IMG/VR virus record: IMGVR_UViG_2541047758_000014 | Origin: a virus | Taxonomy: Duplodnaviria > Heunggongvirae > Uroviricota > Caudoviricetes | Direction: 5' to 3' (one strand) | Length of the DNA: 36,632 nt | Shown here: positions 1-36,632 of the stretch, in pieces | How the letters are laid out: each line of letters starts with the position of its first letter | How positions within the stretch are numbered: position 1 is the stretch's first letter | Notes under the pieces: model-generated | Seen by the model: the letters and a program-made list of their open reading frames with translations, nothing else | Databases searched by the model: none | Told to the model about the DNA's origin: nothing | Made by a program: the position numbers and the translations under genes

Positions 1-60
1 GGTATCCGTTCTGCTGAAGTGTCATGGCGTTGATTTTACGGTGACTCTTCGACAGTGAAA

Positions 61-83
61 AGAAAAAAGGCCGCAGAGCGGCC
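61..83 (-). terminator. Rho-independent terminator candidate downstream of the 209..649 gene
   Basis: Hairpin ggccgc-aga-gcggcc at 69..83; on the minus strand it is followed by TTTTTTCT (complement of 61..68). Confidence 0.5.
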
Positions 84-208
84 ATAAACACAAGTAAAAA
101 TCAATAAGTTAGATAATTATCAAAGACTTACAGACACACAAAAACACAGCCAACCACAACAAATAACAGGGATGTGGTCACTTTGTGGATCATATCGCCG
201 CCATAAAT

Positions 209-649
209 TTACTTAATAACAGTAACCACAGCCACAAGCACGGCCATCGCAGACAGGACAATACCTGTGAGTAGCCAGGTCTGATTTGCAAATGATTTCT
301 GAAGTTCAGTACGATGCTCAGCCATCTCAACTTTCAGAGACTGGCGTAAATCAGCCATCTCAGACTTCAGGGATTGGCGAGATTCTGCCATCTCAAGCCT
401 CAACCCTTCGCGAATCTCCAGTACATCAGATTTGGTAGCAAAGGATTCGCTTCTTGTGGTGAGAGTAATCAGGTTGTTTTTGATTTCAGTCACATCACTT
501 TCCAGGCAACTGACCCGCCGTTCAAGGTCGTCATTCATGCCATCACCTCCATCATTACCACTTCCTGTTACTTGGTTGTTGGATACATTATAGGCATTCT
601 CTTTCTTTTTTCTGAACCGCGAAATATGTGCAACATTCTCTGCCATCAC
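209..649 (-). CDS. Hypothetical membrane-anchored protein with 11-residue coiled-coil-like repeats and a C-terminal transmembrane helix
   Basis: 146 aa ORF; repeats LRLEMAESRQS / LKSEMADLRQS / LKVEMAEHRTE; hydrophobic C-terminus TWLLTGIVLSAMAVLVAVVTVIK; terminator just downstream. Confidence 0.55.
   Translation of the reverse strand: MMAENVAHISRFRKKKENAYNVSNNQVTGSGNDGGDGMNDDLERRVSCLESDVTEIKNNLITLTTRSESFATKSDVLEIREGLRLEMAESRQSLKSEMADLRQSLKVEMAEHRTELQKSFANQTWLLTGIVLSAMAVLVAVVTVIK
318..416. repeat. Three tandem 33-bp repeats inside the 209..649 gene, encoding the 11-aa protein repeats
   Basis: Units at 318..350, 351..383 and 384..416, e.g. tcagccatctcaactttcagagactggcgtaaa / tcagccatctcagacttcagggattggcgagat. 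Confidence 0.7.
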
Positions 650-1008
650 TTCTCATCACCCTGCTTGCCTACCCAGTTCATAAAGGCCCGGGCCGAGTAA
701 CGATGAACAAACCCACATCTGTTACAGGTAAGTCGGAATTCATAGTTATGGATATTTTCCCGATCATGTCCCTCATATCCCGGATACCCAGTAAATGGAC
801 CGATATAATCAAGCATAACAAGAGTGCCTAAATCACACTCCTCAGCAGTTTTCGGCTCAGGCCCCACCTCAACAATATTCGTCAAATACATGTACATATC
901 CGTATCGCCACACGACAAACATTTTTCATTCGTAGACGACTCATTGAGAAAACGCGCAAAATTATCGAGCGTTGCCATTCTTTTAAGTTCATCTAAATGA
1001 AACTTCAC
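646..1008 (-). CDS. Hypothetical protein with two CxxC pairs (possible zinc ribbon)
   Basis: 120 aa ORF; CLSC and CNRC motifs; stop overlaps the start of the downstream gene, suggesting co-transcription; no family recognised. Confidence 0.5.
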   Translation of the reverse strand: MKFHLDELKRMATLDNFARFLNESSTNEKCLSCGDTDMYMYLTNIVEVGPEPKTAEECDLGTLVMLDYIGPFTGYPGYEGHDRENIHNYEFRLTCNRCGFVHRYSARAFMNWVGKQGDEK

Positions 1009-1010
1009 TC

Positions 1011-1988
1011 TTAAGCACCTCCTAGTGGATTAAACCTCACCGCATCCTGCAGGTAATCCGGCGCAAGATGGGCATAAATCATCGTTGTCTGAATCTTTGC
1101 GTGCCCCAGAATTTTCTGGAGCGTCAGAATATTGCCGCCGTTCATCATGAAATGACTGGCGAAGGTGTGGCGCAGCGCATGAACAGCCTGGCCGTCAGGA
1201 ACATCAGGTGCGACCGTTTTGATGACATCGCGAACCAATGGATAATCCAGCGTCGGAAACACCAGTTTCCCGCCCCGTTTTTTGATCTTTTCAAACAGGC
1301 TTTCAGAAATAGGAACGGTACGGTTTTTGCTGTTCTTCGTTTTTGAAAAAGTGATTCGACAATGAAGAACACGGCGCTGCTCCAGTGCCGCTACCTCGCC
1401 CCATCGCGCCCCGGTCGACAGAAGGATTTCGACGGCCAGCCGTTCATCGGGATTTTCAGCCAGTGCATCCAGCAACTGAACACATTCAGACTTACTCAGA
1501 TATCCCATTTCACGCTCGTTAACCTTCATTCCTTTAAGGCCTTGAACGGGGTTATCGTTAAGAAAATGGCCGGATGAGATGAGTGCGGTAAACATCGCGC
1601 TTAACGCCCCAATCTCTCGATTTATGGTGCTGGGCTGTATCCCCTGCTCTATCCTGGACACACGTAGCTCGGTGAGCATCGTTGTATTAAGTTTATGCAC
1701 GCACGGGTCATCCATTGCCTCACTCAAGCGCAGCAATTTAAGGCGCGTGTTATGCCCTGACTTCATTAGCTGGCCGTGGTATTTCCACCACAAGTCAATA
1801 AGCACTGACAGCGGACGGCGATCAATGGAGTTTCCTTTCCACTCATTGTTATGCTGTTGCGCCAGCACCCACCGCTCATATAAAACTGCATCCGATTTCG
1901 TTTTAAATTTTTTGCGAATGCGTTTGCCTTTACGCCCCTCAGGACGCATGTCAAGAAGATACCCTCCCGGAATTGATTTTATGCTCAT
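1011..1988 (-). CDS. int: Phage tyrosine integrase (P2-type site-specific recombinase)
   Basis: Track ORF 1011..2138; start placed at the internal ATG at 1988 (MSIKSIPGGYLLDMRPEG...). C-terminal HALRHTFASHF...ILGHAKIQTTMIYAHL matches the tyrosine recombinase catalytic region (R, H-x-x-R, Y). Confidence 0.9.
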   Translation of the reverse strand: MSIKSIPGGYLLDMRPEGRKGKRIRKKFKTKSDAVLYERWVLAQQHNNEWKGNSIDRRPLSVLIDLWWKYHGQLMKSGHNTRLKLLRLSEAMDDPCVHKLNTTMLTELRVSRIEQGIQPSTINREIGALSAMFTALISSGHFLNDNPVQGLKGMKVNEREMGYLSKSECVQLLDALAENPDERLAVEILLSTGARWGEVAALEQRRVLHCRITFSKTKNSKNRTVPISESLFEKIKKRGGKLVFPTLDYPLVRDVIKTVAPDVPDGQAVHALRHTFASHFMMNGGNILTLQKILGHAKIQTTMIYAHLAPDYLQDAVRFNPLGGA

Positions 1989-2037: not shown

Positions 2038-2346
2038 TTAGCCGGGCTGTGTGCCAGTCTTGCGGGGTTTTTGAGAAGGCGATGTGCTTTTTGGCCCATC
2101 AGGGGAGAGAGACGGACTGATCTGCCCAGCAGCCTCATTTGTTTTTCCCGTCATAAGCCAATTCATGTACTTAAAAAAGCGAGGGTGATTAACAATCTTG
2201 ATAAGCACTTCGCCCCCTATGTTTTCAATCCGCCCCGTTTCATAACGACGCAAAGTGCCGATAGGCACATCAATCAGGCCGCAAAATTCTTCGCGCGTTA
2301 AATCCTCTGATTCACGAATCACTCTAATTTTTTCACCGATAAGCAT
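2038..2346 (-). CDS. Immunity repressor, P2 C / 186 CI-like HTH protein
   Basis: Start placed at the internal ATG at 2346 (MLIGEKIRVIRESEDLTREEFCGLIDVPIGTLRRYETG... HTH); lies directly upstream of int and divergent from the early operon, as in P2. Confidence 0.8.
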   Translation of the reverse strand: MLIGEKIRVIRESEDLTREEFCGLIDVPIGTLRRYETGRIENIGGEVLIKIVNHPRFFKYMNWLMTGKTNEAAGQISPSLSPDGPKSTSPSQKPRKTGTQPG

Positions 2347-4563: not shown

Positions 4564-4767
4564 ATGAACAAAAAGACCTGGTTTCGCGCATACATGTGGG
4601 TGCTGGTATGCGTCCTCGTCTCTCTCATTCTGTATGCAGGACTACTCCCCCGAATGATTTCATCAGACAGCTCCTTCCTGGTATTGCTGGGCATTTTCAT
4701 TGCCATGCTGTACCCGGCAGGCGTTGTTCGCCTTTTCAGTAAGTACATCAAGGAAATCAAACAATGA
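4564..4767 (+). CDS. Small two-helix membrane protein, possible partner of the downstream SPFH protein
   Basis: 67 aa; two hydrophobic segments (WVLVCVLVSLILYAGLL and FLVLLGIFIAMLYPAGVV); RBS aaggga; stop overlaps the next start. Confidence 0.55.
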   Translation: MNKKTWFRAYMWVLVCVLVSLILYAGLLPRMISSDSSFLVLLGIFIAMLYPAGVVRLFSKYIKEIKQ

Positions 4768-5594
4768 AGAAATTCAAACTCTTTCAGATTCTCCCGCTTT
4801 TTGCCGCCATCCTGCTGGTTGGCTGCGATCGCGTTGAGCCAGGTAATGTGGGCATCAAAGTCAACAAGCTGGGCGACGACAAAGGCGTTGGCGAAGTGGT
4901 TGGCGTTGGCCGCTACTGGACTGGCTGGAATACCGAGGTTTACATCTTCCCGACCTTCAAACAAATGAAGACCTACGATGAGCCGTTCAGCTTTCAGATG
5001 AGTGACGGCACAACCATCGGCTATCACATCGGCGTGGCTTACAAGGTTGATCCATCCAAAGTTACCACAGTGTTTCAGACCTACCGCAAAGGCGTGGATG
5101 ACATTACCGACACTGACCTGCGCCAGAAGATTGCCGATGCACTCAACCGACTGGCCAGCAAAATGACCACCGATAAGTTTATCGACGGTGGTAAGTCTGA
5201 ACTGCTGGATTCAGCACTTAAAGATATTCAGGAAGAGATGACCCCCATCGGCATTCAGGTCATGAGCCTCTCTTATGTCGGTAAACCGGAATATCCGCCA
5301 ACCGTTATCGACAGCATTAACGCCAAAGTCACGGCAAACCAGAAAACCCTGCAACGCGAACAGGAAGTCAAGCAACGCGAAGCAGAAGCCAACATGTTGC
5401 GCGCAGAAGCTGCCGGACAGGCTGATGCCATTCGCACAAAAGCCCAGGCTGAAGCCGACGCCATTCGTTTACGCGGTGAAGCTCTGCGCCAGAATCCCGG
5501 CGTTATGGAGCTGGAAGCAATCAACAAATGGAACGGCACGCTGCCGCAATACATGACCAGCAACACCGCTGTTCCGTTTGTTCCGGTGAAGTAA
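4764..5594 (+). CDS. SPFH/band-7 (prohibitin/stomatin-like) domain lipoprotein
   Basis: 276 aa; lipobox LLVGC at the N-terminus; central region and Ala/Glu/Gln-rich coiled coil typical of SPFH proteins. Confidence 0.7.
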   Translation: MKKFKLFQILPLFAAILLVGCDRVEPGNVGIKVNKLGDDKGVGEVVGVGRYWTGWNTEVYIFPTFKQMKTYDEPFSFQMSDGTTIGYHIGVAYKVDPSKVTTVFQTYRKGVDDITDTDLRQKIADALNRLASKMTTDKFIDGGKSELLDSALKDIQEEMTPIGIQVMSLSYVGKPEYPPTVIDSINAKVTANQKTLQREQEVKQREAEANMLRAEAAGQADAIRTKAQAEADAIRLRGEALRQNPGVMELEAINKWNGTLPQYMTSNTAVPFVPVK

Positions 5595-5963
5595 TTAAAC
5601 CCGGCCAGTGAAAATCGCTGGCCGGAGCAGTATCAGGATTTTTTTTAGTATGCCGTTCTCACAAAAAAACCGCTTGCCATGCCGCAATCAGTCAGGTTAC
5701 ATTTCCGCTGCACCTCATAAAACGGGTGCCGGGATTTCCACCCCGCTGACAACCAAAGCGCACAACCGCGCCAGCGGTTTTTTTGTGCGTACCGTATCGC
5801 CACGTCTTTTTCGCACACGAATTATGGTGGGGCGTATGGGGCCGACTTCGGTCGGGCCGGGTTCTTTGGTTGCCGGTTGTGGAAACCCTGTACGTCTCAC
5901 CACCCCGAGTTTTCCACCTCTGGATGGTGAGTTTTCAAAACTTACAACCAAAGAGGCCACACC

Positions 5964-6194
5964 ATGGCAAACCGCAAACAGCACCGCGCTATCGCGGAGC
6001 GTCGTCACATCCAGACTGAAATCAACCGCAGACTTTTCCGCGCATTCCGCGTCGCGCAAATCATGCACATCAATATGCTGCATGAACGCAGTCACGCACT
6101 ATCGAACAGCTATTCCGCCTCTGTTTTCAGCTATCTGGCGGATGATCTGCGCGAGCTTCAGCAGCTCATCCAGCAGCAAAACAAACTCCATTAA
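5964..6194 (+). CDS. Hypothetical small basic protein
   Basis: 76 aa ORF with RBS aaagagg 7 nt upstream; sits where P2-type phages carry small genes before A. Confidence 0.4.
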   Translation: MANRKQHRAIAERRHIQTEINRRLFRAFRVAQIMHINMLHERSHALSNSYSASVFSYLADDLRELQQLIQQQNKLH

Positions 6195-6266
6195 TTCCTG
6201 TTCCGGGCCTTTCCTGCACCTTGCGGCGGGAGGCCTTCGCACATCTGTAACAAGAGGATTGCCGCA

Positions 6267-6632
6267 ATGATTCTCGCCAACGACTTTCTTGAATACCTGC
6301 TCAACACAGAACGTGATCTTGCCGCTCGCGTGCGTGATCGTTATGACATGTACCTGAAATCCCTGCCTGTACCGCAGCTCGCTGACGGAAAGATTGTTAT
6401 TGATGGTCGCTACATGATTGACAGCCACGAGGGAAATTACAGGCTTTACCGCATTGAAGGTGGTACTCCGTCCGTTATTGGCATTTACCAGCGCCCATCC
6501 TCTGCAATCGTCGATGTGATTGCCGACAGCATCCGCATCACACATCGCCATGCCGACACAGAAGACACCGTGCTGGAAATTCAGCGGCTGGCTACAGTCT
6601 GCCGCGACACCCTGAATGGCATGACGAAGTAA
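6267..6632 (+). CDS. Hypothetical protein upstream of the replication gene
   Basis: 121 aa ORF with RBS aagagga; 6 bp before the gpA start. Confidence 0.5.
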   Translation: MILANDFLEYLLNTERDLAARVRDRYDMYLKSLPVPQLADGKIVIDGRYMIDSHEGNYRLYRIEGGTPSVIGIYQRPSSAIVDVIADSIRITHRHADTEDTVLEIQRLATVCRDTLNGMTK

Positions 6633-6638
6633 ATCACT

Positions 6639-9461
6639 ATGACGGCAGAGTACATCAGGGACTGGCAACAACCGCGCCACGCAGTGGGGCGTGAAGGAAC
6701 GGGGATCCCCGCTCCTGAATCCGCGCTTTCCTCCTGGCTGGATGCCTACCGGGTAGAGAACGAGCGCCGCCAGGAAATGGCTGATGCGGCGTTCTCCGCC
6801 ACGCCGCTGGGCAACCTGATTAATAAAAGCCTGGACGCACAGGAAAAACAGGACAAAACCATCACACTGGCAGGAGACGCCAGAAAACAGGCACGCGGCG
6901 CGGTGGATGAAGCCATGGCCTCGCTGCGCCTGCTGCCGTCCTATCTGCGCGATCCGCTTATTCGCCACCTCTCCTTCCTTCGCAAAAAACAGGAAGCCGA
7001 TCGCCGGAAAGGCAAAAAGAGCTGGCAGGCGGAACGCTATGCACGCGGAACCCTGCGCAAAATATTCGAACGTCTGGATCGCACTGACGGACGCTGGCTG
7101 ACACCGGGTTATCGCTCCCTTGCCGGACGCGAACGCCTGGACGATTTGCTTTACCTGCCGCAGCTCAACAAACACCAGATACAGACGCTGGCCACCATGA
7201 CGGCGGCGATGTTCAGCAGCACCTTCGAAAAACTCTGCGATGGCTTTGGCGCGACTGATGGCGAACTGACCATGGATGTAACGCTGAAGGCGTATCAGAT
7301 GCTGGCCCGCATGGCGTTACACCTGCACGCCATGCCTCCACATTATGACGCACTGACAACAGACAAAGACCGGAGGAACGAACCGGACACGGAGCTGCTG
7401 CCGGGCGCAATCCTTCGCCTGACCTGTGCGGAATGGTGGAAACGCAAACTGTGGCTGTTACGTTGCGAGTGGAGAGAAGAACAACTCCGCGCCGCCTGTC
7501 TGGTTTCCAGAAAAACATCACCCTATCTGAGCCAGGACGCGTTAAGCGAGTTTCGCGCACAGCGCGAGAAAACACGCGATTTCCTGAAAAGTTTCATGCT
7601 GGAAAATGAAGACGGGTTCACGATTGATCTCGAGACAGTGTATTACGCGGGAGTAAGTAACCCGGTTCACCGTAAGGCAGAAATGATGGCCACCATGAAG
7701 GGACTGGAACTTCTGGCCGAAGCCCGTGGCGACAGAGCGGTGTTTCTGACTGTCACCTGCCCGTCAAAATACCACGCAACAACGGAGAACGGTCATCCGA
7801 ACCCCAAATGGAACGGGGCCACCATGCGCGACTCCAGCGATTACCTGGTTAACACGTTTTTTGCGGCGGTCCGCAAGAAACTGAACCGCGACGGCCTGCG
7901 CTGGTATGGCATCCGCACGGTGGAGCCTCACCATGACGGCACCGTGCACTGGCATATGATGGTCTTTGCTCATCCGGAAGAAATCGACACCATTGTGTCC
8001 CACACCCGCGATATTGCCATTCAGGAAGATCGCCACGAGCTGGGCGATGATATTACTCCGCGCTTTAAGGCGGAGTACGTCGACGGCTCAAAAGGTACGC
8101 CAACCAGCTACATCGCCACCTACATCGGAAAGAACCTGGACAGCCGCGCCGTGGATGGTATCGACCCGAAAACGGGCAAGCCACGCGTTGACCACGAAAC
8201 CGGAAAATCAATGGCCGAGAGCGTGGAGCGCGCCATCGGCTGGGCGCGCCTTCACCGGGTCCGCCAGTTCCAGTTCTTTGGCATCCCCTCCCGTCAGGTG
8301 TGGCGTGAACTACGCCGCCTTGCCAGCCAGATGGCACGCAACCCGGAAGGCCCGCAACGGCTGAAGGATGACGCAATGGATGCGGTACTCGCTGCCGCTG
8401 ATGCCGGGTGTTTTGCCACCTACATTGAAAAACAGGGTGGCGTGCTTGTTCCACGCAAAGACTACCTGATTCGCACCGCCTACGACCTCGCAGAAGAGCT
8501 GAACGATTACGGCGAACAGAGCGTACAGATTTATGGGATCTGGTCACCACTCATCGGGGAATCCTCCCGTGTGTGCACGCATCCGGATAACTGGAAGCTG
8601 GTAAGACGCAAACCGGAAGCGGAAGACAGCACCCGCGAAAATGGTTTTGACCTTCAGGGCGGCCCTGCCGCCCCTTGGACTCGTGGCAATAACTGTCCCC
8701 GTGTACAGGAAACGAACAACAACGGGACAGAACAGCCGGAAGAACGGCCAGCACCGTGGCCGCAGCTCCCTGACGGCGTTGAAGTGAACGAATGGATGCG
8801 CTCACTGAAACGGCACGAACGCCGGGCGCTGATGCGTTCGCTTCGTGACAAACAGGCAAAAAACAGCAGCGATGAAATGCAGAGCTGGACACAGAGCCGC
8901 AAACAGCAGCGGCCTTTGCCTGATAACCACGAATTACTCGCTAAAGAATGGCGGGAGTCTGCTGAATCTCTCGGCCTGCATATCGGTGAACAACAGATGC
9001 AGCACCTGTTACGGGGCGGCAGTCTGTACGTTGACGGCAGCATCATTGCACCGCAGGGATTTGAAATTGTACGCAAACCGGATACCCGCCCGGACAGCCG
9101 AATCACGCAGCTCTGGCAGCGCCTGAGCCGTAATCACGGCGTAAGCAGCACGGAGATCCGCCATAACCCGGTCTCCAGCTATCTGGCACAGCTCGGGGCA
9201 TCAGACCCCGAAGCCGCCGCACGCCTGGCATCCACACTTCAGCAGGTCCAGAACACCATGAAAACACCCGTTACCGTGCTTTCTGACATGCTGCGCGCCA
9301 TTCGTGACGCAGAGCACGCACAGAGAATCAGAGAAACCACTGAACGCGCCCGCCGCAAAGCAAACCTGCTGAGGACTGGCCTGACCAGTGGAAACAAAAA
9401 ACAGACAGAAACGGGATTCACAAATCCCGTAAATGAGCAAAAAACGCGCCGCGATATATGA
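6639..9461 (+). CDS. A: Replication initiation endonuclease (P2 gpA / 186 A-like rolling-circle initiator)
   Basis: 940 aa; contains the HUH-type region HHDGTVHWHMMVFAHPEEI and Tyr-containing segment characteristic of P2 A; position after the early operon. Confidence 0.85.
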   Translation: MTAEYIRDWQQPRHAVGREGTGIPAPESALSSWLDAYRVENERRQEMADAAFSATPLGNLINKSLDAQEKQDKTITLAGDARKQARGAVDEAMASLRLLPSYLRDPLIRHLSFLRKKQEADRRKGKKSWQAERYARGTLRKIFERLDRTDGRWLTPGYRSLAGRERLDDLLYLPQLNKHQIQTLATMTAAMFSSTFEKLCDGFGATDGELTMDVTLKAYQMLARMALHLHAMPPHYDALTTDKDRRNEPDTELLPGAILRLTCAEWWKRKLWLLRCEWREEQLRAACLVSRKTSPYLSQDALSEFRAQREKTRDFLKSFMLENEDGFTIDLETVYYAGVSNPVHRKAEMMATMKGLELLAEARGDRAVFLTVTCPSKYHATTENGHPNPKWNGATMRDSSDYLVNTFFAAVRKKLNRDGLRWYGIRTVEPHHDGTVHWHMMVFAHPEEIDTIVSHTRDIAIQEDRHELGDDITPRFKAEYVDGSKGTPTSYIATYIGKNLDSRAVDGIDPKTGKPRVDHETGKSMAESVERAIGWARLHRVRQFQFFGIPSRQVWRELRRLASQMARNPEGPQRLKDDAMDAVLAAADAGCFATYIEKQGGVLVPRKDYLIRTAYDLAEELNDYGEQSVQIYGIWSPLIGESSRVCTHPDNWKLVRRKPEAEDSTRENGFDLQGGPAAPWTRGNNCPRVQETNNNGTEQPEERPAPWPQLPDGVEVNEWMRSLKRHERRALMRSLRDKQAKNSSDEMQSWTQSRKQQRPLPDNHELLAKEWRESAESLGLHIGEQQMQHLLRGGSLYVDGSIIAPQGFEIVRKPDTRPDSRITQLWQRLSRNHGVSSTEIRHNPVSSYLAQLGASDPEAAARLASTLQQVQNTMKTPVTVLSDMLRAIRDAEHAQRIRETTERARRKANLLRTGLTSGNKKQTETGFTNPVNEQKTRRDI

Positions 9462-9537: not shown

Positions 9538-10497
9538 ATGAAAATTTGTATCGACGACGGCTCCACCAACATCAAGCTGGCATGGACTGAGAATGGCGAA
9601 CGCCGCAACGCCATCAGCCCGAACAGCTTCAAGTCGGAATGGTCTGCGCCGTTCGGTGGCATGCAGCCCGCGAACTACATGCTTGATGGCGTGCGCTATG
9701 GTTTTGATCCGGTCAGCGATCGCTTTGTCCAGACGACCGACACGCAATACCAGTACAGCGATGTGAATGTAATCGCCATTCATCACGCGCTGGTCAAATC
9801 AGGCATCACGCCACAAGAGGTGGATGTGGTTGTCACCCTGCCACTGAGCGAGTATTTCGAGACAAACGCACAGCCGGACATGGCCAACATCAACCGCAAA
9901 AAAGCGAACGTTATGCGCTCGGTGGAGTACCAGAACGGCGAAGCATTCACTATCCGTAACGTGCGGGTTATGCCTGAATCCATTCCGGCTGGCTTTAAAG
10001 CACTGGCTGACATGAGTCCGTTTGAATCCCTGCTGATTGTGGATTTAGGCGGAACCACGCTGGATGTGGCAAAGGTTCAAGGGCAACTGGCAGGTATCAG
10101 CCAGGTGTTTTGCGATCCACACGTAGGCGTTTCCCTGATGGCCGATGCCGTACTGTCGGTGATGGCCACTAACGGTATGCGCACCAGTCACCACATCGCC
10201 AATACCATTATCGAACATCGCCATGATGAAGCCTGGCTGCGCCAGCACATCCACAATGACGCGCATTACGCCAGCCTGATGGCGGTTATTCGTGAAAAGG
10301 AAGAAACACTGAAACAACGCGTGATCCGCGCGCTGGCGGTTTTTTCGGGTTACGGGCGGGTGATGGTTGTCGGTGGAGGGGCGGAGATTGTGGCACCCGC
10401 TATCCGCGAAGTCTGCGGAGTTAATGCGACTTTCATCGCGGACGGGGTGCCACAGTTTGCTCTGGTTAATGGGCTGTACGCAATGGACAAGGAGTAA
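9538..10497 (+). CDS. parM: ParM/StbA-like actin-type partition ATPase
   Basis: 319 aa; N-terminus MKICIDDGSTNIKLAW and ISPNSFK...YSDVNVIAIHHAL closely resemble plasmid R1 ParM (MLVFIDDGSTNIKLQW...). Confidence 0.85.
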   Translation: MKICIDDGSTNIKLAWTENGERRNAISPNSFKSEWSAPFGGMQPANYMLDGVRYGFDPVSDRFVQTTDTQYQYSDVNVIAIHHALVKSGITPQEVDVVVTLPLSEYFETNAQPDMANINRKKANVMRSVEYQNGEAFTIRNVRVMPESIPAGFKALADMSPFESLLIVDLGGTTLDVAKVQGQLAGISQVFCDPHVGVSLMADAVLSVMATNGMRTSHHIANTIIEHRHDEAWLRQHIHNDAHYASLMAVIREKEETLKQRVIRALAVFSGYGRVMVVGGGAEIVAPAIREVCGVNATFIADGVPQFALVNGLYAMDKE

Positions 10498-11044: not shown

Positions 11045-11851
11045 CTATTTTTTACGCAAAGGGGGTAATTTATATCGCAAATTAACCTCTTTCGTTTCAA
11101 TATCTCTTGGCCCCTTCTTTTTATCAAAAAACAACCAGATATTGAATTTTCGCTCTGTCGGCCAGGTATCGTGCCGTAATGATTCCCACCCAAGATAAGA
11201 AGCGATTTTCTCTGCCATAGCCAGTTTCGCTGGAGAAGTGGCTTTCCTTTGATATGCACACATGACAGCCCCTAATAAAAAATCGACAAGCTGAATATGT
11301 TCCGATGTTTTTGAGTCTTTTGTTTCAACTAGTTTAATTATGTCCTTGCGCCCATATTTTCGGGCCAGAGAATGGTTGGCAATTATGTGAAACTCTTCAT
11401 CGGCTTTTTTGTAACGAGATGGCAGGGGATCAACTTCTATAAGGAACTCACATTCCGCATGAGGCCACCTTTGGATCACGTTACCTATTTTTGTTTCAAT
11501 AAGCTTGCAAAAATGCTTACGCATTGCAAGATCATAATCCCCACCATGATATGATTTTTCTACTTTAGACTTCTCAACAATAATACAGTGAAAAGCCATC
11601 CAGTTGTGCCTAAAAAACACATCAATGACGTCGCTATAAAAAGCTGCATTACGCTTTGAATGTGCTTTCTGCCATTTGAGCTCATCACTGCATCCATGCT
11701 TTTTTCTCAAATCCTGTACCATGCGAGTGAGTTCAGCGCGCCTCTGATAGCTCATCCAGAGACTCCCAAACCCGTAGAATGGCTGCCCATCAACGCCAGA
11801 TTCATCACAGGCAACATGCCATATCATTTTTTTCTGATTGTTATCTTTCAT
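11045..11851 (-). CDS. DUF3800-like protein, candidate anti-phage or accessory cargo at the A-Q hotspot
   Basis: 268 aa; N-terminal WHVACDESG and C-terminal IQLVDFLLGAV motifs as I recall for DUF3800; gene is clearly more AT-rich than the phage backbone; opposite strand to its neighbours. Confidence 0.6.
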   Translation of the reverse strand: MKDNNQKKMIWHVACDESGVDGQPFYGFGSLWMSYQRRAELTRMVQDLRKKHGCSDELKWQKAHSKRNAAFYSDVIDVFFRHNWMAFHCIIVEKSKVEKSYHGGDYDLAMRKHFCKLIETKIGNVIQRWPHAECEFLIEVDPLPSRYKKADEEFHIIANHSLARKYGRKDIIKLVETKDSKTSEHIQLVDFLLGAVMCAYQRKATSPAKLAMAEKIASYLGWESLRHDTWPTERKFNIWLFFDKKKGPRDIETKEVNLRYKLPPLRKK

Positions 11852-12461: not shown

Positions 12462-13508
12462 TCAGGCTGTGGGCTGGGTGTCTAACAGTGCGTAAGGGTT
12501 AAAGCGGATCACCTCTTCGCCCAGCCAGTCATTGATGTGCTTCATGGCCTCCATGACGGGCATCAGCTCGTTAATTGCGTAAACCCGCGCGGCCTTCTCC
12601 ACATCACCAAACGCACTTTTTTCACCCGGCATCGCCCCCATCAGTTGCGGCGGAACGCGGTGCGCAGCCAGCACATCATCACGGGATGCCGCCTTAACAT
12701 TCATGAACTCATCCTTTGCGGTGATCTGCTGGAACGGCAAAATTTGCACCCCCTCTTTGCCCCCGTTGGGCGCATGAATGAGCACGTTTTTAAACGCACC
12801 ACCACCACGTGCCCCCTGTAGCGTTTCTTTCAGGGAGTCCATGCTTTCGCGGTTTACCTGCGCTGCACCGATGTAGATGATGCACCCGGCGTGGGATCCG
12901 TTGTCGTAATACAGTTTTCTGAACATGTCCGCCGAATGAGACAGGCTGGCCGAGAGTAATGCGCCGAGATATTCCGGCATGCCGTAGATTTCCTGGTTAA
13001 TGTCAGGATTCATCAGGTGGCACACTTTGCCAGGGCGAAACTGAAACGCATCCTTGCCATCCTGCACATACCACCATGATTCAAGATCGCTTCCGCGTCG
13101 CATGTATTTCGCCAGTGCGTGCCGTAATTTAAGCGGTTCGCCGAGCATATTGCTTCGAAGCTCAAGGAATGCGTTACCGAACACAAACCAGTCCAGCGCC
13201 AGCGCCGAGAAATCCTGCCGGGAAAGCAGCGGGTGCGGGATGTAGCAGCCGAGTAATACATTGCGCTTAAAGTAAAGCGCAGACTGATGCCAGGACGTTT
13301 GCCGGGCAGCTCTTGCCAGACCGTACCAGTCTACCGGGGTTTCATACCACCGCCCGTTATCAGCACAGTACATATTGTCCAGCAGATCATGCCCGGTCAG
13401 GCGATAAGGACCATCAAATGTGAATGCACTGAGCGATGATTCTTTCCTGAGCGCATCAGCGAGATCAATGCGTGAACTCATGCGCACTTTTTTATTTTTT
13501 CTGCTCAT
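12462..13508 (-). CDS. Q: Portal protein (P2 gpQ-like)
   Basis: 348 aa; size, position next to the terminase and sequence consistent with P2 Q; start overlaps the P stop. Confidence 0.9.
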   Translation of the reverse strand: MSRKNKKVRMSSRIDLADALRKESSLSAFTFDGPYRLTGHDLLDNMYCADNGRWYETPVDWYGLARAARQTSWHQSALYFKRNVLLGCYIPHPLLSRQDFSALALDWFVFGNAFLELRSNMLGEPLKLRHALAKYMRRGSDLESWWYVQDGKDAFQFRPGKVCHLMNPDINQEIYGMPEYLGALLSASLSHSADMFRKLYYDNGSHAGCIIYIGAAQVNRESMDSLKETLQGARGGGAFKNVLIHAPNGGKEGVQILPFQQITAKDEFMNVKAASRDDVLAAHRVPPQLMGAMPGEKSAFGDVEKAARVYAINELMPVMEAMKHINDWLGEEVIRFNPYALLDTQPTA

Positions 13509-28188: not shown

Positions 28189-28683
28189 TCAGAACAGCCC
28201 TTTAACTGAACTGGCCGCGCTGTTAAGAGATGATGTCACCTTATCTTTGAAGCCGGACAGCATATCACTGAACGATGAGGATTGCAGGCGCTCCCGCAAA
28301 TCCTCATCACAGCGTTCAAGGGTCAGTGAAAATTCTATCTTTTTCGCCTTACCGTAGCGATCAAACTCGGAACGGGTCGTATTCGTTTCAGTCAGCACAT
28401 ACATGCCGTAAATCTGCCCGACACCATCAATCAGAGGCCAGGGGCGTCCTGTATATGCCTGCGTGGTCAGCAACGAAAGCGACACTTCGCCACCTGTAAT
28501 TTCAGGATAAAGCACGCCGGAAAGCACAATGCGATCATCACCTGCACCTATATACTGCCAGCTTGCTGAACGGTTAACGCGTTCATTTTTCACATGCCGC
28601 CAGCTTTTGTTTTGCTGTAACTGCTGATGCGGCAGTGTGCGCAGCTCAAAAACAAACATGCCGTAGATCATCATCATGACCAT
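28189..28683 (-). CDS. U: Tail protein (P2 gpU-like)
   Basis: 164 aa; directly downstream of the tape measure gene on the same strand. Confidence 0.8.
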   Translation of the reverse strand: MVMMMIYGMFVFELRTLPHQQLQQNKSWRHVKNERVNRSASWQYIGAGDDRIVLSGVLYPEITGGEVSLSLLTTQAYTGRPWPLIDGVGQIYGMYVLTETNTTRSEFDRYGKAKKIEFSLTLERCDEDLRERLQSSSFSDMLSGFKDKVTSSLNSAASSVKGLF

Positions 28684-35225: not shown

Positions 35226-35891
35226 ATGAATATGCAAATTTTTATCGCACCAGCAGCCACAGTTGCTGCAGTCTGCCTTGCTGCATATTTTGCTTTACGA
35301 AATGAACGTAAAAAGAAAGCACTTGAGATTAGAACAACTCAACTAGATCGAATATCAGAGCTAGTAAACCGAGCATCTACCAATTTGATGCAATATACAG
35401 GTACTCTTGCCTCTATACTGGAAGCGCACGCCAAAGATAATTATCTACCGAACAAAAAATTTGACATTAATGTAATTAGCAAATGGAAAGATTGCCTCGA
35501 TGAGAGTGAGGTCTGGGCGATTGATAGACAGCAACTAAGAACATGTCAGCACAGTCTGGAGTTTCATCGTGAAAAAGAATGGGCTGAATGGAAAAAAATA
35601 ATTCCACCATTACTTGATAAAATTGACCAATTTTTTCTCATATCTAAGCCAGGGCAACCTGTTACGTTTATAAATGGCCAAAACAAAACAGCTGATGAAC
35701 TACTTGTTTTCTCAAGATATTTGAGAAAACAAACAGCAGAAATTGAATCAGTACGTCAGCTGTTACTTTCTCAAATGAGAGAGGAATTCATCGAGTTAAC
35801 TAGCTTTGAACCTGTCACAATGTTTAGCTTATTTAAATCAATAAAGAAAAATGTCATGCAATTTTTCTGTATCAGTGCTCTTAAAAATTGA
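35226..35891 (+). CDS. AT-rich moron: N-terminally membrane-anchored protein of unknown function
   Basis: 221 aa; N-terminal TM IFIAPAATVAAVCLAAYFAL; markedly AT-rich; own RBS (aagga) and downstream terminator; inserted between D and ogr. Confidence 0.6.
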   Translation: MNMQIFIAPAATVAAVCLAAYFALRNERKKKALEIRTTQLDRISELVNRASTNLMQYTGTLASILEAHAKDNYLPNKKFDINVISKWKDCLDESEVWAIDRQQLRTCQHSLEFHREKEWAEWKKIIPPLLDKIDQFFLISKPGQPVTFINGQNKTADELLVFSRYLRKQTAEIESVRQLLLSQMREEFIELTSFEPVTMFSLFKSIKKNVMQFFCISALKN

Positions 35892-36361: not shown

Positions 36362-36574
36362 ATGGTCGGAGGGAATACCCGAAGGCCAGATGTGGAAAGG
36401 CCCCGGAAAACATCTCTGTTTAACCGAGGCCCTAACCGCATTACCTTGACAAGTGAAAGGTTAGCGCCTCTCCGGAAAAGGAGCAAGTGCTATGTCGCAA
36501 AAATCGCTTACGGCCATCACGTTCTGCGTGACGGCAATCCTCATCATCTGGATGTTGCACGGTTCGCTGTGTGA
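36362..36574 (+). CDS. mok-like overlapping reading frame of the hok locus
   Basis: 70 aa ORF overlapping the hok frame, as in hok/mok/sok loci; no sequence signature of its own. Confidence 0.35.
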   Translation: MVGGNTRRPDVERPRKTSLFNRGPNRITLTSERLAPLRKRSKCYVAKIAYGHHVLRDGNPHHLDVARFAV

Positions 36575-36632
36575 AATACGGATGAGCTTCTGGGGAGCGG
36601 AGTTTGCGGCGTTCTTACAGTGTAAGCAGTAA
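36492..36632 (+). CDS. hok: Hok/Gef-family type I toxin
   Basis: 46 aa MSQKSLTAITFCVTAILIIWMLHGSLCEIRMSFWGAEFAAFLQCKQ; SLCEIR and AAFL motifs match Hok/HokA; below ORF-track size cutoff; stop is the last codon of the window. Confidence 0.75.
   Translation: MSQKSLTAITFCVTAILIIWMLHGSLCEIRMSFWGAEFAAFLQCKQ

What the first reader, a model, noticed from the sequence alone, without database searches (positions are those of the whole stretch)
209..1008. Two leftward genes beyond the integrase, one built from 33-bp tandem repeats
Downstream of int (where attL is expected) lie a 120-aa CxxC-CxxC protein and a 146-aa protein with three 11-residue repeats encoded by 33-bp tandem DNA repeats (318..416) and a C-terminal TM anchor, followed by a terminator. 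They may be cargo between int and attL or flanking host genes; the repeat gene could vary in copy number by slippage.
Basis: partly seen in the sequence, partly recalled or inferred. Interest (0 to 1): 0.4.

Follow-up and report, generated by a model that had tools for sequence, protein, structure and literature searches.

The report
Prophage cargo: zinc-ribbon plus membrane-anchor pair
The two genes beyond the integrase are prophage cargo, not host genes: a conserved, mobile pair made of a small zinc-binding protein and a membrane-anchored coiled-coil protein, which several kinds of temperate phage carry where lysogen-expressed accessory genes usually sit; its function is untested and is most plausibly defence against other phages.

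Summary

**Location.** The window is a P2-like prophage inserted between btuC and ihfA of E. coli. The attL core is window 59-83, a 25-bp duplication that is the ihfA terminator hairpin. Both genes (646-1008 and 209-646, minus strand) therefore lie inside the prophage, in the int-att slot. Related prophages at the same site fill this slot with different genes.

**The two proteins.**
- The 120-aa protein belongs to a very small family: 35 representatives among 1.84 billion proteins. Four Cys are invariant. No known fold match was found.
- The 145-aa protein is a tail-anchored coiled-coil protein with a beta-layer motif (FATKSD). It shows borderline similarity to XhlA and DUF1640.
- Its 11-residue unit does vary in copy number. 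Shigella alleles differ by exactly ±33 bp, and homologues carry 0-5 units. The sampled complete E. coli genomes all appear to carry three.

**Conservation of the pair.** It recurs in P2-like, 186-like, lambdoid (directly after cI), P22-like and Mu-like prophages.

**New point.** In 11 divergent copies the anchor gene keeps an internal GGAGGT-N6-ATG, which suggests two in-frame products.

**Function.** Untested. The best guess is a lysogen-expressed membrane module for phage exclusion or abortive infection.

The parts
59..83 (.). attL core, 25 bp: AAAGAAAAAAGGCCGCAGAGCGGCC. It is identical in the empty attB and at attR.
   Evidence: The 25-nt duplication is published for PP_SE11-4.
59..83 (-). 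Intrinsic terminator: stem 83-69, T-run 68-59. It is the host ihfA terminator, duplicated by integration. At attL it ends the leftward C-int-cargo transcript before btuC.
   Evidence: 6 G-C pairs followed by TTTTTTCTTT. One search shows the same hairpin 17 nt after the ihfA stop in K-12.
84..208 (.). Phage-derived att arm. Positions 84 to about 198 are shared by 306 of 5426 E. coli genomes, whatever cargo follows.
209..646 (-). Tail-anchored coiled-coil protein, long form (145 aa). The ATG at 646 overlaps the upstream stop (TGATG). The protein has five parts in order: an N-terminal extension, a Gly-rich linker, a coiled coil, hendecad repeats and a TM anchor.
   Evidence: It matches phrog_9415 at 1e-42.
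545..550 (-). Internal Shine-Dalgarno-like GGAGGT, 6 nt upstream of the invariant internal ATG (536-538).
   Evidence: GGAGG, GGAGA or GGGGG sits at -12 or -9 in all 11 divergent copies. GGA makes up 11 of 27 Gly codons there, against 10 of 90 elsewhere.
209..538 (-). Proposed short form (109 aa), starting at Met37. Many annotations call this start. The XhlA Pfam profile begins at the equivalent Met in relatives.
425..442 (-). FATKSD, a beta-layer motif of alpha/beta coiled coils (x-A-T-K-polar-D/E). It is nearly invariant in the family.
   Evidence: The motif definition comes from PMC4786415.
305..403 (-). Three in-frame 33-bp units, each an 11-residue hendecad, of the stalk. This is the element that varies in copy number.
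215..271 (-). C-terminal transmembrane anchor (aa 126-144). Only one residue follows it.
646..1008 (-). 120-aa zinc-ribbon protein. It starts at GTG 1008, 2 nt after the int stop, with GGAGG at 1018-1022. The CxxC pairs are at 910-921 and 715-726.
   Evidence: (phrog_4293, 2e-30).
1011..1988 (-). P2-type tyrosine integrase, the upstream gene of the same leftward operon.
2038..2346 (-). C-type HTH repressor, the first gene of the leftward lysogenic operon.

Best explanation
The two genes are a mobile accessory cassette, a "moron", carried in the integrase-att slot of a P2-like prophage. They are read as the tail of the lysogenic C-int operon.

**Components.**
- The first gene makes a small cytoplasmic four-cysteine zinc-ribbon protein.
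- The second makes an inner-membrane protein anchored by its C-terminal helix.
- The cytoplasmic part of the second protein is an XhlA/DUF1640-type coiled coil, probably trimeric, with a beta-layer. Its stalk is built from hendecads.
- Gain or loss of one 11-residue unit changes stalk length by three helical turns without changing the helix register.
- The anchor gene probably yields two in-frame products. The long form is coupled to the zinc-protein gene. The short form starts at a conserved internal SD-ATG.

**Proposed function (inference).** In the lysogen the pair sits at the membrane as a sensor or regulator plus a holin-like effector. It excludes or aborts infection by other phages.

**Shown here:** the location, the architecture, conservation of the pair, repeat variation, and the internal SD-ATG.

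**Inferred only:** expression in the lysogen, the two isoforms, binding between the partners, trimer formation, and the anti-phage role.
For: **Inside the prophage.** attL lies at 59-83.

**Tight operon.** The int stop is followed by 2 nt and then the GTG start. The zinc gene stop overlaps the next ATG. No credible terminator occurs before the att core; the two other minus-strand matches lie inside the coding sequences and are weak, and the total is within the shuffle expectation.

**Variable slot.** Prophages that share the att arm carry one of three things there:
- a 131-aa gene;
- this pair;
- a divergent version of the pair.

The int-att region of P2-like prophages is described as a minor defence hotspot (PMC13586616).

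**The pair is conserved down to about 20-28% identity of the zinc protein.** It is nearly always abutting or overlapping, and it sits in these contexts:

| Context | Loci |
|---|---|
| After int in P2-like prophages | L009, L018, L020 |
| Between the S24-type cI and int in a 186-like element | L022 |
| Abutting the cI-like repressor of a lambdoid prophage, where lambda has rexAB | L013 |
| Between tailspike and gp16 of a P22-like prophage, where P22 has sieA/immI | L014 |
| Tail-module morons | L015, L019, L030 |

**Anchor protein.**
- The beta-layer motif is present.
- A family profile reaches XhlA- and CCDC90-annotated proteins at 1e-13 to 1e-34.
- Relatives give sub-threshold Pfam XhlA and CCDC90 hits and a holin PHROG hit.

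**Dual start.**
- The N-terminal frame is open in 11 of 11 copies, and the other frames are closed. The product of the shuffle probabilities is 1e-10.9.
- GGAGGT sits at a fixed position before an invariant Met.
- The XhlA homologue gp24.1 of phage SPP1 also has a dual start, and XhlA-type proteins act as co-holins (PMC6316719).
Against: **No functional data.**
- Neither protein matches any PADLOC model.
- Neither gives a significant Pfam or NCBIfam hit.
- The window protein itself does not reach XhlA, and it scores only 10.9 bits against CCDC90-like.

**Expression is inferred.** Lysogenic expression rests on gene order and on the known regulation of P2 Pc and lambda PRM. It was not measured.

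**The tail-module copies do not fit simply.** The Mu-like copy and the Klebsiella siphovirus copy are not in repressor operons.

**Profile hits may be inflated.** Matches between coiled-coil plus TM proteins can owe part of their score to composition.

**An alternative for the Gly-rich stretch.** It could be a structural linker whose codons happen to resemble a Shine-Dalgarno sequence.
Confidence: 0.4

Rival explanations
1. Toxin-antitoxin or addiction module. The membrane-anchored protein is a toxin that damages or depolarises the membrane. The upstream zinc-ribbon protein is its protein antitoxin, and the pair stabilises the prophage.
For: - The genes are small and overlapping, with the soluble partner first.
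- Relatives of the anchor protein resemble holin or co-holin families.
- The same prophage carries a Hok/Gef toxin at its other end, so addiction genes near att are plausible.
- In Edwardsiella the same anchor protein follows a different upstream partner.
Against: - Neither protein matches any TA family in Pfam, NCBIfam or PADLOC.
- The zinc protein has no DNA-binding domain of the kind usual in type II antitoxins.
- XhlA-type proteins are reported harmless on their own (PMC6316719).
- This reading does not exclude a defence role, since many TA systems act in abortive infection.
Confidence: 0.17
2. Lysis accessory for the phage's own lytic cycle. The anchor protein is an XhlA-like co-holin or holin regulator. 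Its long and short forms act like an antiholin-holin pair to set lysis timing.
For: - Relatives show borderline similarity to XhlA and to holin PHROGs.
- The dual-start architecture resembles SPP1 gp24.1 and lambda S.
- Some copies lie in late or tail regions.
Against: - In this window and in most contexts the pair follows the repressor or integrase.
- By the known switches of P2 (Pc/Pe) and lambda (PRM), these operons are silent during lytic growth.
- The nearly identical SE11 prophage has its own complete lysis cassette elsewhere (holin, M15 endolysin, LysB-like, LysC).
- No XhlB-type holin or endolysin lies next to the pair in any locus examined.
Confidence: 0.1
3. Another lysogenic-conversion function at the inner membrane, unrelated to phages. 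Examples are modulating a host transporter, a stress response, or ribosome or membrane physiology, as other tail-anchored proteins do.
For: - The protein has a tail-anchored topology with a cytoplasmic coiled coil.
- Eukaryotic DUF1640 relatives (MCUR1/CCDC90B) are membrane scaffolds rather than pore formers (abstracts).
- No defence-database hit was found.
Against: - The pair sits repeatedly in slots classically used by exclusion and abortive-infection genes: after cI, in the sieA/immI region, and in the P2 int-att hotspot.
- The family is essentially confined to temperate phages in every context seen.
Confidence: 0.15
4. The genes are host chromosomal genes that flank the prophage.
For: None was found. 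The only point in its favour was their position beyond int.
Against: - The empty site has only 100 bp between btuC and ihfA.
- Host homology stops at position 83 in the unoccupied genomes sampled (38 of the 40 rows shown; one more stops at 61).
- The 25-bp core recurs at attR.
Confidence: 0.01

Closest known systems
XhlA family (Pfam PF10779): PBSX XhlA and SPP1 gp24.1, the tail-anchored co-holins of Bacillus phages
   Same: - Small protein with an N-terminal cytoplasmic coiled coil and a single C-terminal TM helix.
- Relatives of the window protein give XhlA hits at E = 2e-6 to 4e-5, and the profile starts at the internal Met.
- The family profile retrieves proteins named 'hemolysin XhlA family'.
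- SPP1 gp24.1 also has an in-frame dual start.
   Different: - The window protein itself gives no XhlA hit, and its relatives stay below the Pfam cut-off (28 bits against 34.7).
- It is not in a lysis cassette and has no XhlB holin or endolysin neighbour.
- It is paired instead with a zinc-ribbon protein.
- Its N-terminal extension is 25-41 residues, not 9.
- It occurs in Gram-negative temperate phages.
DUF1640 / CCDC90-like (Pfam PF07798; MCUR1, CCDC90B and prokaryotic homologues)
   Same: - Membrane protein with a C-terminal anchor.
- The coiled-coil stalk opens with the x-A-T-K-polar-D/E beta-layer motif (PMC4786415).
- Close homologues are named DUF1640 or CCDC90 by UniRef and RefSeq.
- The divergent allele in L004 scores 26.5 bits against this family.
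   Different: - The window protein scores only 10.9 bits, against a cut-off of 33.5.
- It has no recognisable head domain, only a short extension and a Gly-rich linker.
- The function of the bacterial members of this family is unknown in any case.
Lysogen-expressed exclusion and abortive-infection genes of temperate phages (lambda RexAB, P22 SieA, P22 SieB/Esc)
   Same: - Same genomic slots: directly after cI in a lambdoid prophage (L013), and in the tailspike-gp16 region of a P22-like prophage (L014).
- One component is a membrane protein and the other is soluble.
- From my own knowledge: sieB also encodes an in-frame shorter product, Esc.
   Different: - No sequence similarity to any of these families was detected.
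- No phenotype is known for this pair.
- RexB and SieA are polytopic membrane proteins, not tail-anchored ones.
Defence hotspots of P2-like prophages (Rousset 2022, PMC9122126; NAR 2026, PMC13586616)
   Same: The int-att interval is reported as a minor defence hotspot of P2-like prophages, holding 3% of their systems. Here the same interval holds alternative cargos in prophages at the same att site.
   Different: This gene pair is not among the recognised or candidate systems. It gives no PADLOC hit and is not mentioned in that paper.

Membership tests
XhlA (PF10779) | Pfam HMM score at or above the gathering cut-off (34.7 bits) | tested here: not met
   The window protein gives no XhlA hit. 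The best relatives score 28.3 bits (L019) and 24.3 bits (L013).
XhlA (PF10779) | Short protein with an N-terminal coiled coil and a single C-terminal TM helix | tested here: met
   The TM helix is aa 126-144, preceded by a coiled-coil heptad and hendecad pattern.
XhlA (PF10779) | Encoded in a lysis cassette next to an XhlB-type holin and an endolysin | tested here: not met
   The neighbours are int and attL here. They are a repressor, int or tail genes elsewhere. The lysis cassette of the nearly identical SE11 prophage is separate.
XhlA (PF10779) | Cooperates with a holin to permeabilise the membrane | not testable with these tools
   Needs expression experiments.
DUF1640 / CCDC90-like (PF07798) | Pfam HMM score at or above the gathering cut-off (33.5 bits) | tested here: not met
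   10.9 bits, E = 0.43, for the window protein. 26.5 bits for the L004 allele.
DUF1640 / CCDC90-like (PF07798) | Beta-layer motif [aliphatic]-A-T-K-[polar]-[DE] at the start of the C-terminal stalk | tested here: met
   F-A-T-K-S-D at aa 69-74, nearly invariant in the family. The first residue is aromatic here and aliphatic in some relatives.
DUF1640 / CCDC90-like (PF07798) | C-terminal membrane anchor | tested here: met
DUF1640 / CCDC90-like (PF07798) | Homotrimeric stalk | not testable with these tools
   Only monomer prediction was available. Trimer formation is inferred from the beta-layer motif.
phrog_4293 / the four-Cys zinc-ribbon family (unnamed) | Profile match, plus invariant C30, C33, C95, C98, G99 and W112 | tested here: met
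   phrog_4293 at 1.7e-30. There are 35 representatives, and the invariant columns are shown in alignment A4.
Prophage defence or exclusion system (generic) | Encoded in a variable hotspot of a prophage and co-transcribed with lysogeny genes | tested here: inconclusive
   The hotspot and the operon layout are shown. Transcription was not measured.
Prophage defence or exclusion system (generic) | Similarity to a known or candidate defence protein | tested here: not met
   PADLOC gives only chance-level hits, E = 0.007 and E = 0.03.
Prophage defence or exclusion system (generic) | Reduces plating or burst of a challenging phage | not testable with these tools
   Needs an experiment.
Contingency (phase-variable) repeat locus | Near-identical tandem units that slip at high frequency, usually switching the reading frame or the promoter | tested here: not met
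   The unit is 33 bp and in frame. The units are 55-70% identical. The 17 sampled rows, of 86 complete E. coli genomes, span 917-927 bp, so no ±33-bp class was seen. Variants are seen only across lineages.
Type II toxin-antitoxin | Match of either partner to a known toxin or antitoxin family | tested here: not met

The most novel reading that the evidence does not exclude
The pair is a previously unrecognised anti-phage system that moves between unrelated temperate phages.
- Its effector would be an XhlA-like co-holin, harmless alone and kept in the lysogen's inner membrane.
- The effector would be made as two isoforms from a conserved internal start.
- It would be controlled by an interchangeable upstream sensor, here a new zinc-ribbon fold.
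- On superinfection it would permeabilise the membrane early, possibly by cooperating with the incoming phage's own holin.
Probability: 0.15. Interest if true: 0.7.

Novelty: new variant of a known kind. Interest (0 to 1): 0.5.

Why it matters
The two genes are annotated only as hypothetical proteins. They turn out to be one conserved two-gene cassette that at least five lineages of temperate enterobacterial phage carry where lysogen-expressed accessory genes usually sit.

If the cassette is an exclusion or abortive-infection system, three things would follow:
- a new effector type, a tail-anchored XhlA/DUF1640-like coiled coil, would join the defence repertoire;
- bacterial DUF1640 proteins would gain a first functional handle;
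- there would be a compact model for how in-frame isoforms and a stalk of adjustable length tune a membrane effector.

If it is not, the result still settles the prophage boundary. It also shows how an att core that is itself a terminator insulates host genes on both sides of the insertion.

Tried and rejected
- **Host-gene reading:** rejected by att mapping.
- **Family searches on the two window proteins:** Pfam, NCBIfam and PADLOC gave nothing significant.
- **PDB sequence search** with the anchor-family profile: only chance coiled-coil hits, E of 0.04 or worse.
- **Structure of the zinc protein:**
  - BFVD gave no match at E of 0.001 or better; the best hits (E about 0.01) were uncharacterised proteins, followed by weak TFIIS-type zinc ribbons.
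  - The afdb50 library was not available.
- **The search for related loci** with family alignments failed for lack of a conserved stretch. Contexts were collected one at a time with the look-up of encoding contigs instead.
- **tblastn of the anchor protein against phage genomes** found nothing, probably because of the low-complexity filter.
- **Megablast of the region against phage genomes** found only a piece of a Klebsiella integrase.
- **Fast slippage or phase variation:** rejected.
- **Promoter-like site at 616-587 (-) upstream of the internal start:** the scan found no more sites than in shuffled sequence, so I give it no weight.
- **Literature searches** for DUF1640 or XhlA together with phage defence found no description of this pair.
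Full report
**1. What is in the sequence**

On the minus strand the window reads, from right to left:
- an HTH repressor (2038-2346);
- a P2-type tyrosine integrase (1011-1988);
- a 120-aa ORF (646-1008);
- a second ORF (209-646/649).

The genes are tightly packed.
- The 120-aa ORF starts at a GTG 2 nt after the int stop. A GGAGG lies inside the end of int.
- Its stop overlaps the ATG of the next gene as TGATG.
- I therefore take the second protein as 145 aa rather than 146, as RefSeq does in strain SE11.

The tandem repeat is real.
- In codon register it consists of three 33-bp units at 371-403, 338-370 and 305-337.
- They encode LRLEMAESRQS, LKSEMADLRQS and LKVEMAEHRTE.
- The units share 18-23 of 33 nt.

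The last 20 residues form a strongly hydrophobic helix, aa 126-144. A terminator-like hairpin with a T-run lies at 83-59 on the minus strand.

**2. Where the prophage ends**

All 5426 complete E. coli genomes match the left end of the window, but the unoccupied genomes sampled match only positions 1-83.
- In a K-12 strain this stretch lies in the 100-bp spacer between btuC and ihfA.
- Comparing attB, attL (window) and attR (SE11) gives a 25-bp common core, AAAGAAAAAAGGCCGCAGAGCGGCC, at window 59-83.
- The SE11 genome paper lists a P2-like prophage between btuC and ihfA with a 25-nt duplication (PMC2608844).

Both genes are therefore inside the prophage.

The core is the ihfA terminator hairpin plus its T-run. 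After integration ihfA keeps its terminator at attR. A second copy at attL ends the phage's leftward operon just before btuC.

**3. The slot is variable**

The phage arm next to the core (84 to about 198) occurs in 306 of 5426 genomes. Only 86 of these also have most of the cargo stretch.

Other prophages at the same site carry one of two alternatives:
- a single unrelated 131-aa gene (L005, L006, L007, L008);
- a divergent version of the same pair (L004).

In L004 the zinc protein is frameshifted and the partner is annotated as DUF1640.

A 2026 survey reports the integrase-att interval of P2-like prophages as a minor defence hotspot, holding 3% of their systems (PMC13586616). That paper does not mention this pair.

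**4. The 120-aa protein**

- It matches phrog_4293, a family of unknown function, at 1.7e-30. No Pfam, NCBIfam or PADLOC match is significant.
- A full HMMER scan of 1.84 billion representative proteins found only 35 relatives, 79-166 aa apart from one marginal 734-aa hit.
- Aligned, they share invariant C30, C33, C95, C98, G99 and W112. The CxxC...CxxC site is thus the defining feature.
- The better AlphaFold model (pLDDT 78.7) has three regions. Two N-terminal helices come first. A beta-sheet then brings the two Cys knuckles together around a poorly predicted variable insert. A long C-terminal helix ends the chain.
- It has no significant match among predicted viral structures either. BFVD gave nothing better than E about 0.01; the best hits were uncharacterised proteins, followed by weak TFIIS-type zinc ribbons.

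**5. The 145-aa protein**

It matches phrog_9415, also of unknown function, at 1.3e-42. Alignments of close and distant homologues show a fixed plan:

| Order | Element | Notes |
|---|---|---|
| 1 | N-terminal extension | 25-41 residues, variable |
| 2 | Gly-rich stretch ending in an invariant Met | GSGNDGGDGM in the window |
| 3 | Coiled coil | LExRVxxLExDVxxIK |
| 4 | Nearly invariant S-F-A-T-K-S-D | see below |
| 5 | Stalk of variable length | see section 6 |
| 6 | QT(K)W followed by the TM helix | |

- A-T-K-polar-D/E is the beta-layer motif of trimeric alpha/beta coiled coils. It is described as prominent at the start of the stalk of DUF1640 membrane proteins (PMC4786415).
- The window protein does not reach the Pfam cut-offs: 10.9 bits for CCDC90-like and no XhlA hit.
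- Relatives come close: 26.5 bits to CCDC90-like, and 28.3 and 24.3 bits to XhlA. One relative matches a holin PHROG at 2e-8.
- A profile of 16 family members retrieves proteins that databases name CCDC90 or DUF1640 (about 1e-29 to 1e-34) and hemolysin XhlA family (about 1e-13 to 1e-16).

I file it as a borderline relative of both families, with the same architecture, and not as a certified member of either.

**6. Repeat-number variation**

The 11-residue units have hydrophobic residues at positions 1, 5 and 8. This is the 11/3 (hendecad) pattern, so adding or removing one unit keeps the helical register. That last step is inference from coiled-coil geometry.

Among alleles that are otherwise nearly identical, the copy number is:

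| Units | Where |
|---|---|
| 3 | the window |
| 2 | Shigella flexneri (P0009; also P0032) |
| 4 | Shigella dysenteriae (P0014) |
| 1 | P0038 |

- At the DNA level the Shigella alleles differ from the window by an exact 33-bp deletion and an exact 33-bp duplication.
- Both lie in the same int-zinc-anchor-btuC arrangement, and the rest of the gene is about 99% identical.
- More distant homologues have none to five hendecads (L014 with none, L004 with five). Others instead have three copies of the beta-layer unit (L020).
- The 17 sampled rows, of 86 complete E. coli genomes, span 917-927 bp with no ±33-bp class.

This is occasional unit gain and loss over evolutionary time, not a rapid switch.

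**7. The pair is a conserved cassette that moves between phage types**

I examined twelve genomic contexts reached through distinct zinc-family representatives or phage-database hits, plus the window and L004. In all but one the next gene, abutting or overlapping in most cases, is a homologue of the anchor protein:
- after int at the edge of P2-like prophages (L009, L018, L020, probably L025);
- between an S24-type cI and int in a 186-like element (L022);
- abutting the cI-like repressor of a lambdoid prophage, with Cro divergent (L013);
- between the tailspike and gp16 of a P22-like prophage (L014);
- inside tail modules of a Mu-like phage and of Klebsiella siphoviruses (L015, L019, L030).

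The exception, L017, is one of the weakest family hits. In Edwardsiella the same kind of anchor protein follows a different 149-aa partner without Cys motifs. The upstream partner may therefore be exchangeable.

From established knowledge of phage regulation, P2 Pc drives C-int, and lambda PRM drives cI-rexAB. The P22 region between gene 16 and gene 9 holds sieA and immI. Most of these positions are therefore expressed in the lysogen and silent in lytic growth. That is an inference. No expression data were available.

**8. A conserved internal start**

In all 11 divergent copies three features hold:
- The reading frame is open from a start at or overlapping the upstream stop, through 25-41 codons. 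The other two frames are closed in every case.
- The product of the shuffle probabilities of such openness is 1e-10.9. The copies are homologous, so this overstates independence, but the extensions are barely alignable.
- The Gly-rich stretch spells GGAGGT (GGGGGT in two copies) exactly 12 nt before the invariant ATG in ten of eleven (eight GGAGGT, two GGGGGT); in one of these ten (L018) the stronger GGAGA lies at -9, as does the GGAGG of the eleventh, L004.

The rare GGA codon makes up 11 of 27 Gly codons at codon positions -5 to -3, against 10 of 90 elsewhere in these genes.

The simplest reading is two in-frame products:
- a long form, 145 aa here, coupled to the zinc-protein gene;
- a short form, 109 aa, from Met37.

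Many annotations already call the short form, and it equals the whole XhlA profile in relatives.

There is precedent. The SPP1 XhlA homologue gp24.1 has a dual start. XhlA-type and XhlB-type proteins are each harmless alone but lethal together (PMC6316719).

**9. Most likely mechanism, and its rivals**

*Shown here:* a prophage-borne, tightly coupled two-gene cassette; a four-Cys soluble protein; a tail-anchored alpha/beta coiled-coil protein with an adjustable hendecad stalk and an internal SD-ATG; and recurrent placement next to lysogeny genes.

*Inferred:*
- Both proteins are made in the lysogen.
- The anchor protein is trimeric, with its coiled coil in the cytoplasm.
- The zinc protein binds it, perhaps through the N-terminal extension present only in the long form.
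- The module acts on the membrane to exclude or abort superinfecting phages.

I give this full statement about 0.4. Rivals:
- toxin-antitoxin or addiction module, 0.17; compatible with a defence role;
- another membrane-directed lysogenic-conversion function, 0.15;
- accessory of the phage's own lysis, 0.10; disfavoured by the operon position and by the separate lysis cassette in the nearly identical SE11 prophage;
- host genes, refuted.

**10. Novelty and verdict**

- The prophage, its att site and the hotspot concept are known.
- XhlA and DUF1640 are known families of largely unknown mechanism.
- The held literature did not yield four things: the pairing with this zinc-ribbon family, its recurrence across phage types in lysogeny slots, the conserved internal start, and the hendecad copy-number series.

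I rate it a new variant of a known kind, of moderate interest (0.5). It is well defined and easy to test, but it has no functional evidence yet.

Noticed in passing
window 36492-36632 (+): A Hok/Gef-family toxin ORF (46 aa) lies just after ogr, at the right end of the window. In SE11 it sits between ogr and attR, so both prophage ends carry small membrane-protein cargo next to att. The window ends before attR.
   Followed up: partly
window 5710-5784 and 5820-5907 (+): Rfam matches above the gathering score to isrK Hfq-binding RNA (64 bits) and to C4 antisense RNA (80.5 bits). Both lie in the early region, overlapping or next to an Ash-family ORF (5608-6270).
   Followed up: no
window 9538-10497 (+) and 11045-11851 (-): The classical P2 hotspot between the replication gene (6639-9461) and the portal (12462-13508) holds two genes. 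One is a ParM/StbA-type actin-like protein (Pfam 1e-81). The other is a DUF3800 protein that matches the PADLOC candidate PDC-M04A (3e-35). SE11 has different genes at this position.
   Followed up: partly
window 4764-5594 (+): An SPFH/Band 7 domain protein (Pfam 6e-31) is encoded among the early genes of the prophage.
   Followed up: no
window 35226-35891 (+): A 221-aa ORF between gene D and ogr has no Pfam or PADLOC match. SE11 carries a different, oppositely oriented gene there, so this is another variable slot.
   Followed up: no
window 59-83; L002 1559-1583; L003 about 28506-28530: The att core is the whole ihfA terminator (hairpin plus T-run). Integration therefore leaves ihfA termination intact and supplies an identical terminator for the phage's leftward operon.
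   Followed up: yes
L004 3731-4230 (E. coli O145 RM12367-C1): In the divergent version of the pair the zinc-protein gene is split by a frameshift into a 137-aa piece and a 39-aa piece. The second CxxC falls in the second piece. The anchor gene remains intact.
   Followed up: partly
L031 3065-3812 (Edwardsiella tarda): A typical anchor protein, with the GGENGGGGDDM stretch and the ATKED motif, overlaps a different upstream gene of 149 aa. That gene has no Cys motif and no PHROG match, which hints that the upstream partner can be swapped.
   Followed up: partly
L030 3152-3511 (Klebsiella): The zinc-protein ORF upstream of a gene annotated 'hemolysin XhlA family protein' is absent from the genes listed for this locus, although it is intact. 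The pair may therefore be under-counted in annotations.
   Followed up: partly
window 616-587 (-): A promoter-like site (TTCAGA-18-TATAAT, 10 of 12 matches) lies inside the N-terminal extension, upstream of the internal start. It could give a transcript for the short form only, but the scan found no more sites than in shuffled sequence.
   Followed up: no
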